From: Candidatus Babeliales bacterium
GTDB taxonomy: Bacteria > Babelota > Babeliae > Babelales > JACPOV01
Reading direction: 5' to 3'
DNA length: 64,000 nt
Assembly (NCBI GenBank): GCA_050250855.1
Contig: JBFWNW010000001.1
Coordinates: 412,266 to 476,265, forward strand
Each line of letters opens with the position of its first letter. Within the stretch, counting starts at the first letter, position 1. Of the stretch, positions 57,001 to 64,000 are shown in pieces. A program made the position numbers.

Positions 57001-60000
57001 TCTGTGTATTGGTATACATTAACGAACGGAATTTAAATAATTCCTAATAATCGATTGGTTCATATTTATGACAAATCCTTAGATCGAATTTACGTTAATC
57101 TACTACGCCCTTGGGTGTTTTTTATCATACACCTTGCGCAGATGATCCGTTTCTACGTGCGTATAAATCTGCACTGTTGCTATGGTTTCATGCCCCAGCA
57201 AAAGTTGTAGTGAACGCAGGTTAGCACCTTTTTTGAGTAAATGTGTTGCCAGTGAATGGCGCAATTTGTGCGGCGAAATATTTTTAATACCAGCTTTTGC
57301 GCATAATGCTTTGAGTATTAACCAGAATGATTGCCGAGAAATTGGCTTTACTTTTTTGCCATACAAAACAGGAAATAAATAATCAATATGGGCTTTTTTT
57401 CTAATTAATGTTTGATGCGTTTTTTCTACATACTGTTGCAATAAAATATGCATAGGTTCTGGTAAAGGAACTATGCGCTCTTTTCCGCCTTTGCCAAAAA
57501 CGGTAATAAAACCCGTATCGGTGTGCAAGTCAGAGAGCTTCAAGCGCGTCAGCTCAGAAACACGCATGCCAGAACTATACATGAGGCACAACATCACCCG
57601 ATTGCGTATACTTTTTTGTGTATCGCCAACCAAAGCCGCTTTAATAAGGGCTTCAACCTCTGCTTCGCTCAAATACGTTGGCAACCGCCTAGGAATTTTA
57701 GGAAAGGCAATATCAACCGTATAGTTTTCCCACCCCAACTGCTCTCCTGCCCAGGCATAAAAGGTCTTGAGGGCAGATAGCTTGCGCGAGCGGCTCCGTG
57801 CCGTTAAAGAAAGAGAGGCTAAATGCTTAAGGTATTCCTTAATAACCCCCTGATTAATGGTCTGAAAAGTAAGGCCTTTTTGCTCAAGAAACGTAACAAA
57901 TTGCGTAAGATCTGTTTTATAGGCAGCATAGGTGTTAGAGGCAACCCGCTTTTCTGCCAATAAGTAAGCTTCAAATCTTGTTAAAATAGTAGACATACTC
58001 ATACACTGCATCCTTTTTTATAGGTTAGCTAACCTGAATTATACCAGAAAAATAGACCAAATCCACCTATAAAGAGAATCTTTTACCCTGGGATGTAATT
58101 TCTATTTGACAAATTGAATAAAGACTGTATAATAGTGTTTAGATATGATTATAATAAAAATGGAGACTTTATGACTTCTACTTCTTTAAAAACAATATTT
58201 ACAATGCTCATCCTTGGTGCTACATCTGTGCATACCATGGAAAATAATAGATTTTTTCCTTTTGTTGTACAAAAAAAGGAAAAGCTAGAAATGCGAGTAT
58301 TGAGCCCTGAAGAGGCTCGAGAGGATGTACAAAGATGGTCAGATTTATCTGAAAAATCTAAACAGCAGATTATTGACGCTTTTAGAGAATCTGGCGATGA
58401 AAATGAAGAGCTATATTATTTTTGCCTCTTGACCTGGGAGAAAATTCTGACGTGGCCTATCTTAAATTACGAAGATAAAATGCTGGTGATTAACCAAATT
58501 GCTATAGGAACAAATTTCAGCAACCAAATTATAATTAACAACAAACTTATTAATGCTGCTGATTATTTTAAAAAGCTCGAAGAAAAATATGCACTCAAAC
58601 TTTTAAATGAAATGAGTGATAATTGGTCGCAGCTAGAAAAAAAAGAGAAAAAAAGAGTGCTCATGTTATCACAACAATATGAAGATAATGATCATTATCA
58701 AGAACGCATAAAAAGACTTAATAGTAAATAATTAAATGGAGATTACTATGTTACGTAAACTATTACTTTTCACCTTACTTTTAGGAGCTATAGCTCCTGC
58801 AGCTGCAGCTTCAATCAAACTTGTATCAAACGATGATCAAGAGTTTGAGATAGAAAAAGCTGCTGCTGAACAATCAGAAACTATTAAAAATATGTTAGCC
58901 GATCTAGAAGATCAGCAAGATCAACCAATTAATTTACCTGCCATAGATGGAAAAACATTGGGACTTATTGTAGAGTTTCTGAACAACAACAAAGATTTGA
59001 GTAATCTAAATCTTTCTGATCTTATAAACCTGGTTAATGCTGCAAATGGTCTTGATATACCTAAGCTTCTTGATGCAGCTGCTAGGCTGTTAGCAGAACA
59101 TATTCAAACCAATAAAGCAAAAATTAACATTCAAGAGCTTAAAGAAAAGCTTCCCCTTGATATGCAAAAGCTCGTTGAAGCAAAGATACCCTTTAAGTTA
59201 TTACAAACTCTTACGGGGCATACGGACTCGGTCCTTTCAGTAGCATGGTCACCAGATGGCACCAAGCTTGCATCAGGTTCATGGGACGAAACCATAAAAA
59301 TATGGGATGTAAAAACTGGCACCGAGCTTCAAACTCTTACAGGGCATACACGCTGGGTCTTTTCAGTTGCATGGTCACCAGATGGCACCAAGCTTGCATC
59401 AGGCTCATATGACAAAACCATAAAAATATGGGATGTAAAAACTGGCACAGAGCTCCAAACTCTTACGGGGCATACGGACTCGGTCCTTTCAGTTGCATGG
59501 TCACCAGATGGCACCAAGGTTGCATCAGGTTCAACTGAAAAAACCATAAAAATATGGGATGCACAAACTGGCACCGAGCTTCAAACTCTTACGGGGCATA
59601 CACACTGGGTCCTTTCAGTTGCATGGTCACCAGATTGCACCAAGCTTGCATCAGCTTCATGGGACAAGACAATAAAAATATGGGATGTAAAAACTGGCAC
59701 AGAGCTCCAAACTCTTACGGGGCATACACACTGGGTCGTTTCAGTTGCATGGTCACCAGATGGCACCAAGCTTGCATCAGGTTCAGCTGACAAAACCATA
59801 AAAATATGGGATGTAAAAACTGGCACAGAGCTCCAAACTCTCACGGGGCATACGGACTCGGTCCTTTTAGTTGCATGGTCACCAGATGGCACCAAGCTTG
59901 CATCAGGCTCAGATGACAAGACCATAAAAATATGGGATGTAAAAACTGGCGCCGAACTTCAAACTCTTACAGGCCATACAGACCTGGTCCATTCAGCAGT

Positions 60001-63000: not shown

Positions 63001-64000
63001 ACGCAAACTATTTTTGTTAACACTTATTTTAGGAGCAATAGCTCCTGCCGCTGCAGCTTCAATCAAACTTGTATCAAACGATGATCAAGAGTTTGAGATA
63101 GAAAAAGCTGCTGCTGAACAATCAGAAACTATTAAAAATATGTTAGCCGATCTAGAAGATCAGCAAGATCAACCAATTAATTTACCTGCCATTGATGGAA
63201 AAACATTGGGACTTATTGTAGAGTTTCTACAGAAAAAGGATATTGAGGTTAAAAAATTAGATCTTGAAGCACTTATTAATCTAGTCAATGCTGCAAATGG
63301 TCTTGATATACCTAAGCTCCTTGATGCTGCGGCTACCGTTTTAGCAGAACATATTCAAACCAATAAAGCAAAAATTAACATTCAAGAGCTTAAAGAAAAG
63401 CTTCCCCTTGATATGCAAAAGCTCGTTGAAGCAAAAATGCCATTTAAGTTATTACAAACTCTTACGGGGCATACAGACTCGGTCTTTTCAGTAGCGTGGT
63501 CACCTGATGGCACCAAGCTTGCATCAGGTTCATGGGACAAGACAATAAAAATATGGAATGCACAAACTGGCACCGAGCTCCAAACTCTTACGGGGCATAC
63601 AGGCTTTGTCCATTCAGTAGCATGGTCACCAGATGGCACCAAGCTTGCATCAGGCTCATATGACAAAACCATAAAAATATGGGATGCACAAACTGGCACA
63701 GAACTCCAAACTCTTACGGGGCATACAACCTACATCCAGTCAGTAGCATGGTCACCAGATGGCACCAAGCTTGCATCAGGCTCATATGACAAAACCATAA
63801 AAATATGGGATGCACAAACTGGCACAGAACTCCAAACTCTTACAGGGCATACAGACTGGGTCATTTCAGTAGCATGGTCACCAGATGGCACTAAGCTCGC
63901 ATCAGCTGCAGATGACAACACCATAAAAATATGGGATGCACAAACTGGCACAGAGCTCCAAACTCTTACAGGGCATTCAAACTCTGTTCATTCAGTAGTA

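What a model noticed while it worked through the whole genome (the two positions that open the first line are those of the whole stretch)
58748..64000. Secreted Skp1-WD40 single-chain fusions: a bacterial mimic of the Skp1 + F-box/WD40 arm of SCF ubiquitin ligases
Six to seven paralogous genes (g00451-g00454 in tandem at C1:471013-476265, the last continuing into g00712 at C3:2-595 across a 127-nt contig overlap; g00553-g00554 at C2:103605-106810) encode 450-480-aa proteins with a signal peptide, a eukaryotic Skp1 core (BTB/POZ fold plus helices H5-H6) and, directly behind it, a seven-bladed WD40 propeller. The Skp1 C-terminal helices that bind F-boxes (Pfam Skp1, PF01466) are replaced by one short helix that starts with a leucine-proline motif like F-box helix 1. 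Adaptor and substrate receptor of an SCF(FBXW)-type E3 are thus fused in one chain; I read them as effectors that dock on host cullin-1 and redirect or block host ubiquitination without host [...]
Evidence so far: pfam.tsv: Skp1_POZ (PF03931) E 3e-18 to 8e-17 at aa 22-82 in all six full genes, then 6-7 WD40 repeats; no PF01466 row. swissprot.tsv: best hits of g00553, g00554, g00452 are Dictyostelium SKP1a (38% over 121 aa, 35% over 142, 32% over 155; up to Skp1 residue 123-149 of 162). AF2 of aa 20-165 of g00554 with a 44-row alignment: pLDDT 91.0; Foldseek PDB: all 49 listed hits are Skp1 chains, e.g. 6v88 Dictyostelium Skp1A, rmsd 2.6 over 122 columns, 37% identity. Full-length model of g00553: helices plus propeller, propeller pLDDT above 90. 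Alignment with 39 Skp1 homologues: conserved through H5 and H6, then the canonical C-terminal segment is replaced just before blade 1. relatives.tsv: PF03931 [...]
(Added by a program. Inside this text positions count along the whole contig: contig position 412,266 is position 1 of the stretch shown here. "Call 12" and the like, gene names such as g00115 and contig names such as C1 are that model's own, and its searches are not shown. The text may have been shortened before it was handed on; [...] marks where a part breaks off. The agent that wrote the report below was given it as the finding of a first reader that could run no searches.)

Follow-up and report, generated by a model that had tools for sequence, protein, structure and literature searches.

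The report
Exported Skp1-WD40 fusion gene array
A bacterium that parasitises protists carries a row of genes for exported proteins that join a copy of the eukaryotic ubiquitin-ligase adaptor Skp1 directly to a variable WD40 binding domain, most likely so that chosen host proteins are fed into the host's own cullin-based degradation machinery.

Summary
Four abutting + strand genes (58748-64000; the last runs off the contig and ends on contig C3), plus two genes on contig C2, each encode a Sec-type signal peptide, a Skp1-type BTB core, two short helices and a WD40 propeller of 6-7 blades.

The fusion is not a local oddity. It belongs to a family spread patchily through Babeliales (Dependentiae): 46 of 261 genomes. 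Metagenomic members carry LRR in place of WD40, which mirrors the FBXW and FBXL receptor classes.

Homology to Skp1 is strong through helix H6 and undetectable after it. An invariant Leu-Pro helix then follows, and its pattern resembles F-box helix 1. The WD40 repeats are 65-88% identical to each other, but hypervariable at exactly the known top-face hotspot positions.

I read these proteins as single-chain mimics of cullin-RING substrate receptors (confidence 0.42). Against this:
- Cullin binding is untested.
- The four window copies have lost three of the most conserved Skp1 residues; the C2 copies keep them.
- Three window copies end in hydrophobic tails.
- The genome has secretins but no type III or IV marker.

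My literature searches found no description of this family. I class it as a new variant of a known kind.

The parts
58748..60175 (+). Gene 1 of the array. The ORF opens at 58736; the probable start is 58748, behind a GGAG. All aa numbers in this report count from 58736.
58748..58810 (+). Sec-type signal peptide (MLRK, hydrophobic core LLLFTLLLGAIA, then an Ala-rich AxA site)
   Evidence: Read from the sequence. Kyte-Doolittle mean 2.72 over 12 aa. No signal-peptide predictor was available.
58811..59116 (+). Skp1-type BTB/POZ core through helices H5 and H6 (aa 26-127)
   Evidence: PF03931 E 9.5e-18. hhalign against eukaryotic Skp1 gives probability 99.8, E 8e-28, and ends at H6. VIA core alignments have rmsd 1.5-2.0 A to Skp1 residues 2-130.
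59129..59182 (+). Two short helices: aa 132-138 (IQELKEK) and aa 141-149 (LDMQKLVEA), the second headed by the invariant Leu-Pro
   Evidence: DSSP on both models. Pro invariant in 12 of 12. Profile comparison with F-box helix 1 and Skp1 H7/H8.
59195..60073 (+). Seven-bladed WD40 propeller made of 42-aa highly repetitive units
   Evidence: Z 51-52, rmsd 0.7-0.9 A, 52-57% identity to 7big, 2ymu and 5yzv. Unit statistics.
60110..60172 (+). C-terminal moderately hydrophobic tail ending LFFNK. Its last codons (TTTTTTAATAAATAA) directly precede the next gene's start region.
   Evidence: Kyte-Doolittle mean 1.46 over 19 aa
60188..61546 (+). Gene 2: same layout, six WD40 units, longer Gly/Ala-rich hydrophobic tail
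61559..62983 (+). Gene 3: same layout, seven WD40 units (three of them with small indels)
62996..64000 (+). Gene 4: cut by the contig end inside the repeats. It continues at C3:2-595 and ends in a hydrophobic tail.
58171..58731 (+). Upstream gene for an exported protein of unknown family (context only; found only in the same genus)

Best explanation
These genes encode exported single-chain mimics of a cullin-RING substrate receptor. The proposed steps are below; steps 1, 2 and 3 are inferred, only the anatomy is shown.

1. The Sec signal peptide takes the protein out of the bacterial cytoplasm. A secretin-based pathway or vesicles would then have to carry it to the host.
2. The Skp1-type BTB core would dock on the N-terminal repeat of the host's cullin-1. 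The Leu-Pro helix pair would take the place that an F-box (or the '3-box' of BTB adaptors) holds next to the cullin.
3. The WD40 top face would capture host proteins, which the host ligase then ubiquitinates.

Shown: the array is a recently expanded set kept nearly uniform by recombination, and it diversifies at the ligand-contact positions of the propeller. This would give a repertoire of specificities.
For: Skp1 identity of the N-terminal domain: PF03931 E about 1e-17; hhalign probability 99.8; 50 of 50 listed structural matches are Skp1, Z 13.5-15.4.

A conserved family, not a one-off fusion.
- PF03931 matches occur in 12 of 61 relatives and 46 of 261 genomes of the phylum, in 29 of 145 genera, against 0 of 14 control genomes.
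- They sit in open frames of mostly 300-900 aa, often in arrays.
- All 11 relatives' ORFs that I translated start with a signal-peptide-like segment, and 10 of the 11 are followed by a propeller (L013 has no recognisable propeller).

Receptor domains mirror F-box proteins. Of the 23 long hits I fetched from the 150 listed, 6 are Skp1-LRR and 5 are Skp1-propeller.

Most family members keep the Skp1 motifs PIPLPN and AANYLD, including the two C2 copies. I recall these as the cullin-contact region.

The Leu-Pro helix is invariant in 12 of 12. It resembles the F-box helix-1 profile: score 14.4, z 5.1, reached by 0 of 20000 column permutations.

Repeat variation. In 26 canonical units of 41, entropy is 2.7-3.4 bits at four positions, which are R1-3, R1-2, R1 and D-1, and at most 1.5 bits elsewhere. 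R1-2, R1 and D-1 are the published top-face binding hotspots (PMC3419727, passages read).

Partners and export. I found no cullin in 261 genomes and no F-box in this genome. Two secretin genes are present.

The array is missing from the same locus in a genome of the same genus, as expected of a fast-turnover accessory host-interaction gene.

A precedent exists: chlamydial BTB-LRR effector families (PMC4209131, passages read).
Against: - No binding test of any kind was possible.
- The four window copies have G for the near-universal Tyr/Phe, N for Pro and A for Asn in the two most conserved Skp1 motifs. They may therefore bind cullin poorly or bind something else.
- Nothing after H6 is detectably homologous to Skp1 or to an F-box: hhalign stops at H6, and 0 of 19 relatives and 0 of 4 window copies hit PF01466 or an F-box model. 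The geometry towards Rbx1 is unknown.
- A cleavable signal peptide plus a C-terminal hydrophobic tail (3 of 4 C1 genes in the window, and the C3 end of the fourth) would by default leave the protein anchored in the bacterial inner membrane, facing the periplasm.
- No type III or type IV secretion marker was found.
- The propeller is nearest to bacterial highly repetitive WD40s (52-57% identity) rather than FBXW propellers.
Confidence: 0.42

Rival explanations
1. Blocker rather than receptor. The protein reaches the host and occupies cullin-1 (or holds host proteins on its WD40 face) without productive ubiquitination. It would then act as a dominant-negative of host SCF ligases or as a sequestering decoy.
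For: The same anatomy as the best explanation. Loss of the H7-H8 region and the direct Skp1-propeller junction may place substrates out of reach of the E2. The altered conserved residues in the window copies could tune affinity.
Against: Hypervariable top-face hotspots across many paralogues, and parallel WD40 and LRR versions, fit a repertoire of substrate specificities better than a single blocking job. No data on activity exist either way.
Confidence: 0.15
2. Envelope protein unrelated to cullins. After Sec export the protein stays in the periplasm, or is anchored by its hydrophobic tail in a bacterial membrane or on the cell surface. The Skp1/BTB fold serves only as a packing or oligomerisation module, and the WD40 face binds bacterial or host-surface ligands.
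For: - A signal peptide plus a hydrophobic C-terminus in the C1 copies.
- TM-like tails in some relatives, for example the second ORF of L009, L013 and P0138.
- No type III or IV marker.
- A WD40 of the prokaryotic highly repetitive type.
- The window copies have lost the near-universal Tyr, Pro and Asn.
Against: - The C2 copies and most relatives have no such tail, and keep the Skp1 motifs PIPLPN and AANYLD over large evolutionary distance. That is hard to explain without the eukaryotic partner.
- The fold is specifically Skp1-type: PF03931 at E 1e-17 against generic BTB at E 4e-4 to 0.02.
- The family is confined, as far as searched, to an obligately intracellular phylum, whose signal-peptide proteins are held to be effectors (PMC6561590, passages read).
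- The tails are only moderately hydrophobic (mean 1.45-1.51). Their last codons double as the upstream region of the next gene.
Confidence: 0.2
3. Mimic of Skp1 towards its other partners. The domain binds host F-box proteins, or non-SCF Skp1 partners (recalled: the RAVE V-ATPase assembly complex, Sgt1). It would tether these to WD40-bound targets or titrate them away.
For: H5 and H6, half of the F-box-binding surface, are conserved. Two short helices lie roughly where H7 and the start of H8 lie in Skp1: alignments reach Skp1 residues 145-148, with rmsd 3.2-4.4 A.
Against: PF01466 is undetectable. The propeller follows within about 5-10 residues of the Leu-Pro helix, which leaves little room for a three-helix F-box. 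The invariant Leu-Pro helix looks like an F-box helix 1 already in place.
Confidence: 0.1

Closest known systems
Skp1 plus FBXW receptors (beta-TrCP, Fbw7, Cdc4) of SCF ligases
   Same: A Skp1-type BTB core (Z 13.5-15.4 to Skp1 chains, 32-37% identity), followed by a seven-bladed WD40 whose top face carries the variable residues. LRR versions of the family parallel FBXL receptors.
   Different: One chain instead of two. PF01466 (H7-H8) and a full three-helix F-box are undetectable. There is no helical linker domain before the propeller. A bacterial signal peptide is present. The WD40 is of the prokaryotic highly repetitive type.
BTB-(3-box/BACK)-Kelch and other single-chain cullin-3 adaptors (for example KLHL11; PMC3597819, passages read)
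   Same: A BTB-fold cullin adaptor and a beta-propeller substrate receptor in one polypeptide. Two helices directly after the BTB helices, where the 3-box sits. That paper itself calls BTB-Kelch proteins single-chain analogues of Skp1/beta-TrCP.
   Different: The core here is Skp1-type, not generic BTB: PF03931 at 62-65 bits against PF00651 at 16-21 bits. There is no BACK domain. Dimerisation is unknown. The expected partner is cullin-1, not cullin-3.
Protochlamydia PEX1 family: N-terminal BTB plus C-terminal LRR, 73 members (Domman et al. 2014, PMC4209131, passages read)
   Same: An intracellular bacterium of amoebae, a eukaryote-type BTB-fold domain fused to a repeat domain, tandem birth-and-death expansion, and a predicted takeover of host cullin ligases.
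   Different: Another phylum. Generic BTB rather than Skp1. A type III secretion signal rather than a Sec signal peptide. LRR only. That paper states that Chlamydiae appeared to be the only bacteria with BTB domains.
Bacterial F-box effectors (Legionella AnkB and others; PMC2790608 seen as search listing and abstract only); F-box proteins of Babeliales themselves
   Same: Entry into the host SCF pathway by molecular mimicry. F-box-like proteins occur in 59 of 261 genomes of this phylum. 16 genomes hold both kinds, by my reading of the tables.
   Different: F-box effectors need host Skp1. The fusion described here would bypass it. This genome has no F-box match.
Highly repetitive prokaryotic WD40 proteins (PkwA 5yzv, 2ymu; class defined in PMC5587647, passages read)
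   Same: Internal repeat identity of 0.65-0.88. 52-57% identity and rmsd 0.7-0.9 A to these structures. Variation concentrated at the predicted hotspot sites, as that paper notes for the class.
   Different: Here the propeller is joined to a Skp1 domain and a signal peptide. That paper does not mention Skp1, BTB or signal peptides (0 occurrences each).

Membership tests
Skp1 (SCF adaptor) | N-terminal BTB/POZ fold of Skp1 type (Pfam PF03931) | tested here: met
   E 9.5e-18 to 5.5e-17 in 4 of 4 window copies. 6 matches in the genome. 50 of 50 listed structural matches are Skp1.
Skp1 (SCF adaptor) | C-terminal helices H7-H8 that complete the F-box binding site (Pfam PF01466) | tested here: not met
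   No row at E<=10. No match in the genome at E<=1. hhalign stops at the end of H6. Two short helices do occupy roughly that space.
Skp1 (SCF adaptor) | Conserved PIPLPN and AANYLD motifs (recalled as the cullin-1 contact region) | tested here: inconclusive
   Kept in the C2 copies and most relatives. The four window copies read PINLPA and AANGLD, with G at a site that is Y/F in 118 of 125 homologues.
Skp1 (SCF adaptor) | Binds cullin-1 | not testable with these tools
   No eukaryotic cullin sequence could be obtained. No cullin was found in 261 Babeliales genomes (no positive control).
F-box proteins (FBXW/FBXL) | F-box domain of three helices (PF00646 or PF12937) | tested here: not met
   No hit in the 4 window copies at E<=10, in 19 relatives at E<=1 or in the genome at E<=0.01. 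Only a helix-1-like Leu-Pro helix is present.
F-box proteins (FBXW/FBXL) | C-terminal WD40 or LRR substrate-binding domain | tested here: met
   WD40 E 1e-62 to 1e-97. Seven blades in the model. LRR in 6 metagenomic family members.
Single-chain BTB cullin adaptors (BTB-Kelch type) | BTB-fold adaptor and propeller receptor in one chain, with a two-helix element after the BTB | tested here: met
   Models: helices at aa 132-138 and 141-149, then the propeller. This shows likeness of layout only; cullin-3 binding and dimerisation were not tested.
Single-chain BTB cullin adaptors (BTB-Kelch type) | Generic BTB domain (PF00651) above threshold | tested here: inconclusive
   15.6-20.9 bits against a cut-off of 20.5. 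Only the fourth copy passes. The Skp1_POZ model scores three times higher.
Highly repetitive WD40 proteins | Internal repeat identity of at least 0.7, with diversity at hotspot sites | tested here: met
   Mean identity 0.73-0.88 in 5 of 6 genes and 0.65 in C2a. Entropy peaks at R1-3, R1-2, R1 and D-1.
Translocated effectors of intracellular bacteria | Delivery into the host cell | not testable with these tools
   Only a Sec signal peptide and two secretins are seen. No VirB4 or FHIPEP match.

The most novel reading that the evidence does not exclude
Babeliales have built their own class of cullin-RING substrate receptor that needs neither host Skp1 nor an F-box. It is a Skp1 core welded to a self-homogenising WD40 (or LRR) cassette whose contact residues are reshuffled by repeat recombination. 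That would make it a rapidly evolvable library of degraders aimed at host proteins, run through a Sec/secretin export route rather than an injection system.
Probability: 0.3. Interest if true: 0.85.

Novelty: new variant of a known kind. Interest (0 to 1): 0.66.

Why it matters
Pathogens are known to enter the host ubiquitin system with F-box, U-box, RING or BTB mimics. A Skp1 adaptor fused directly to the receptor would be a different solution, one that bypasses host Skp1 altogether.

It would also give a compact natural example of a cullin-1 receptor in one chain, which is of interest for engineered protein degradation.

Dependentiae are almost unstudied experimentally. A family present in about a sixth of the genomes searched, with variable binding surfaces that can be read from the sequence, offers a concrete handle on how these parasites control their protist hosts and on how their signal-peptide 'effectors' leave the cell.

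Tried and rejected
- Word-indexed protein search with aa 22-160 found only the genome's own protein.
A single C2 protein then found no relative. A narrower alignment worked.
- Full-length model against PDB: the 50 listed entries by VIA-align are generic or prokaryotic WD40 propellers, and no FBXW chain was among them. This says nothing about the helix-propeller junction.
- The Protein Atlas gave only a 0.75-score WD40 cluster.
- Sequencing runs: 3 DNA metagenome runs of one study hold the stretch, and no RNA holder is listed. I did not lay reads.
- The tree of 23 bacterial and 75 short Skp1 domains is poorly resolved, with 64 of 95 inner branches open. Monophyly of the bacterial set is not rejected (p-AU 0.788; the constrained tree is 33.6 log-likelihood units better than the quick free tree). 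This does not prove a single origin.
- The upstream gene as a partner: it is found only in the same genus (2 of 61 genomes) and is not linked to Skp1 fusions elsewhere. I therefore spent no complex prediction on it.
- Complex prediction was not used, because the one pair that matters (with a host cullin) cannot be supplied.
- A literature search for the Skp1 residues that touch cullin-1 gave nothing usable. That point is recalled from Zheng et al. 2002, which I did not read here.
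Full report
WHAT IS THERE

The window is G000:C1:412266-476265 of a 1.22-Mb, 11-contig genome that is 95% complete. Four + strand ORFs fill its last 5.3 kb: 58736-60175, 60176-61546, 61547-62983 and 62984-64000, the last open at the contig end.

Each ORF begins ATG GAG ATT ACT ATG directly after the previous stop codon. All aa numbers in this report count from 58736.

The fourth gene continues at C3:2-595 across a 127-nt overlap. Because the repeat unit is 126 nt, its blade count (seven by this join) is not secure. Two further copies lie at C2:103605-105041 and C2:105371-106810.

ANATOMY

Every copy starts with a classical Sec-type signal peptide: MLRK, a 12-residue hydrophobic core with Kyte-Doolittle mean 2.72, then an Ala-rich AxA site. 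No predictor was available, so this is read from the sequence.

Skp1 domain:
- Skp1_POZ (PF03931) matches aa 26-86 at E 9.5e-18 to 5.5e-17 in 4 of 4 window copies. Generic BTB scores only 16-21 bits, and PF01466 does not appear even at E<=10.
- PF01466 has no match anywhere in the genome at E<=1.
- The best PDB sequence matches are Skp1 chains (6v88 and 7t1z, E about 2e-9).
- An AF2 model of aa 24-165 (30-row alignment, pLDDT 88.5) gave 50 of 50 listed VIA-align entries as Skp1, Z 13.5-15.4.
- The tight alignments (rmsd 1.5-2.0 A, 92-100 residues) cover model residues 2-104 against Skp1 2-130, that is, through H6.
- Longer alignments reach model 140-142 against Skp1 145-148, but at rmsd 3.2-4.4 A.
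- Profile-profile comparison of 12 bacterial N-terminal regions with 17 canonical Skp1 proteins gives probability 99.8 and E 8e-28, and stops exactly at the end of H6.

After H6, both models show two short helices, not one: aa 132-138 (IQELKEK) and aa 141-149 (LDMQKLVEA). The second is headed by Leu-Pro.

The full mature model (pLDDT 95.3, pTM 0.87) then shows 28 strands, which is seven blades. Its nearest solved structures are prokaryotic or designed highly repetitive WD40 propellers (7big, 2ymu, 5yzv): Z 51-52, rmsd 0.7-0.9 A, 52-57% identity. WDR5 follows at about 39% identity. No FBXW chain is among the 50 listed entries.

The second gene has only six recognisable units.

Three window genes and the C3 end of the fourth finish in a moderately hydrophobic tail ending LFFNK (mean hydropathy 1.45-1.51 over 19 aa). 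The C2 copies end in a charged tail.

IS THE LEU-PRO HELIX AN F-BOX REMNANT?

- The Pro is invariant in 12 of 12 aligned bacterial members.
- The pattern [L/I]-P-x-[E/D]-[I/L/M]-x3-hydrophobic-x3-hydrophobic recurs in most of the 21 members I inspected (19 have the Pro shown; P0113 aligns one register off and lacks the acidic residue, and P0138 lacks the Pro).
- I took 20 F-box pieces from Babeliales genomes; 17 matched my anchor pattern.
- I compared their helix-1 profile with 16 non-redundant Leu-Pro helices, after dropping the near-duplicates of gene 3, gene 4, C2b and P0038, and dropping P0113.
- The F-box helix-1 score is 14.4 (z 5.1; 0 of 20000 column permutations reach it). Skp1 H7 scores -0.2 (z 2.4) and H8 scores -1.7 (z 2.3).
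- Caveat: I anchored the sets on the Leu-Pro and acidic positions, so four of the 14 columns match by construction. The independent signal is only the two downstream hydrophobic positions.
- MAFFT alignments pair the window's two helices with Skp1 H7 and H8 in one run, and pair the relatives' Leu-Pro helix with H7 in another.
- No F-box or PF01466 model hits 19 relatives at E<=1.

I conclude that the motif is real and conserved, and that its resemblance to F-box helix 1 is the best single description. A degenerate Skp1 H7/H8 is not excluded. In layout the helix pair sits where the '3-box' of cullin-3 adaptors sits, which is two helices packing on the last BTB helices (PMC3597819, passages read).

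THE FAMILY

PF03931 matches occur in 12 of 61 relatives. In the whole held phylum they occur in 46 of 261 genomes (45 over the cut-off), in 29 of 145 genera, against 0 of 14 control genomes. They lie in open frames of mostly 300-900 aa and often in arrays of up to 12 per genome.

Relatives' records are titled Candidatus Babeliales bacterium. One of them is the same place as locus L007, from a genome of the 'same order' as this one. This agrees with earlier notes of the scan.

I translated 11 relatives' ORFs. All begin with a signal-peptide-like segment, a Skp1-like domain follows, and 10 of the 11 continue into a WD40 or more divergent propeller (L013 shows no recognisable propeller); a Leu-Pro helix is clear in 6 of the 11, with two weaker variants (L014 Met-Pro, L017 Leu-Pro in a divergent context). 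Many end in a conserved helical module (L-S-x-E-Q-A...) that the window copies lack, and a few end in TM-like tails.

A full HMMER pass over 1.84 billion representatives found only 428 proteins at E<=0.001, and 7 at E<=1e-10. Of the 150 listed I fetched 23 long ones:
- 6 are signal-peptide Skp1-LRR fusions (LRR confirmed by Pfam);
- 5 are Skp1-propeller fusions;
- 2 are multi-Skp1 proteins with signal peptides;
- 8 are tandem Skp1 proteins of eukaryotic type;
- 2 are unrelated.

Two of the fusions are named 'S-phase kinase-associated protein 1' by their sources, and the other names are generic.

A tree of 23 bacterial and 75 short Skp1 domains is poorly resolved. A single clade of the bacterial domains is not rejected: p-AU 0.788, and the constrained tree is better than the quick free tree.

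RECENT DYNAMICS

- The first 240 nt of the four window genes are 92-98% identical, and those of the C2 pair are 99.2% identical.
- Mean identity between WD40 units within a protein is 0.65-0.88. This is the 'highly repetitive' class of PMC5587647.
- For the entropy count I used 26 of 41 units. I dropped 15 units with indels, a shifted start or a terminal blade.
- Among those 26, Shannon entropy is 2.7-3.4 bits at four positions and at most 1.5 bits at the other 38.
- With the unit written [15 protein letters not shown]...-G-S-x-D, these four positions are R1-3, R1-2, R1 and D-1. The last three are the published top-face interaction hotspots (PMC3419727).
- I named the hot set after seeing the data, so this is a description, not a test.
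- In a genome of the same genus, the flanking genes stand next to each other with no array between them: XerD-like recombinase, the unknown exported protein, then prolyl-tRNA synthetase. Here the synthetase follows the array at C3:597-2021. The array is therefore a lineage-specific gain or expansion, or a loss in the sister genome.

WHAT BEARS ON FUNCTION

- The genome has no F-box match. I found no cullin in any of 261 genomes, but the control genomes gave no positive either.
- F-box-like proteins are common in the phylum: 59 of 261 genomes, 39 over the cut-off. By my reading of the two tables, 16 genomes have both kinds, never at the same place.
- Two secretin genes are present. VirB4 and FHIPEP are not found. 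A Sec plus secretin route is therefore conceivable, and an injection system is not seen.
- Published work on cultured Dependentiae reports many signal-peptide proteins taken to be secreted effectors, as well as F-box, RING and deubiquitinase genes. It does not report a Skp1 fusion (PMC6561590 and PMC4378268, passages read).
- The most conserved Skp1 motifs are kept by the C2 copies and most relatives. The four window copies read PINLPA and AANGLD. Among 125 homologues these sites are P in 103, N in 73 and Y/F in 118, with G in none.
- That these motifs contact cullin-1 is recalled from Zheng et al. 2002, which I did not read here.

READING

The best-supported mechanism is an exported, single-chain cullin-RING substrate receptor:
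- a Skp1-type core for the host cullin;
- a Leu-Pro helix pair in the F-box/3-box position;
- a variable propeller for host targets.

Shown: the fold, the family, the conserved motifs and the hotspot variation. Inferred: export to the host, cullin binding and ubiquitination.

I put this at 0.42. The rivals are a non-productive blocker (0.15), an envelope or surface protein unrelated to cullins (0.20) and a mimic towards other Skp1 partners (0.10).

The window copies in particular may have drifted from, or retuned, cullin binding.

NOVELTY

Four literature searches found no paper describing bacterial Skp1-receptor fusions. The scan's own index also has none.

The closest published bacterial case is the BTB-LRR PEX1 family of Protochlamydia. 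Its authors thought BTB domains were confined to Chlamydiae among bacteria (PMC4209131).

This is a new variant of a known kind, namely mimicry of cullin-ligase receptors by intracellular bacteria. It is not a new category.

Noticed in passing
window 56368-57036 (+): A 222-aa protein with a signal-peptide-like N-terminus and a DOT1 histone-methyltransferase domain (PF08123, E 3e-18). This is a second eukaryote-type, possibly host-directed gene, about 1.7 kb (two genes) upstream of the array.
   Followed up: no
window 60161-60190, 61532-61561, 62969-62998: The gene junctions read ...TTTTTTAATAAATAA ATGGAGATTACTATG. The shared C-terminal residues FFNK of one gene therefore coincide with the A/T-rich upstream region and GGAG of the next. 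The conserved tail end may reflect translational coupling as much as protein function.
   Followed up: partly
loci L007-L012, L014, L016, L017; P0017, P0113: Most relatives of the family end in a conserved helical module after the propeller (pattern L-S/T-x-E-Q-A-x-x-I/L ..., about 40 aa) that matches no Pfam family in my scans. The window copies lack it.
   Followed up: no
window 60176-61546: The second gene has six WD40 units instead of seven. Either it forms a six-bladed propeller or it recently lost a unit by recombination.
   Followed up: no
G000:C1:339-29318 and C1:152125-156693 (outside the window): A family of very large signal-peptide proteins (868-1522 aa). They carry many copies of a repeat containing FGFYDTQTI.CEKFE.TW, a beta-helix-like middle part, WSPDG-type propeller repeats and a shared C-terminus ...ENVSVPPY.
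   Followed up: no
G000:C2:124339-124812 and C2:129022-129486: Two secretin genes (open frames of 883 and 855 aa) lie about 18-22 kb from the C2 pair of Skp1-WD40 genes.
   Followed up: no
window 64000 / G000:C3:1-127: The contig break lies inside the 126-nt WD40 repeat, and the start of C3 holds two identical units. The repeat number of the fourth gene may be mis-assembled.
   Followed up: partly
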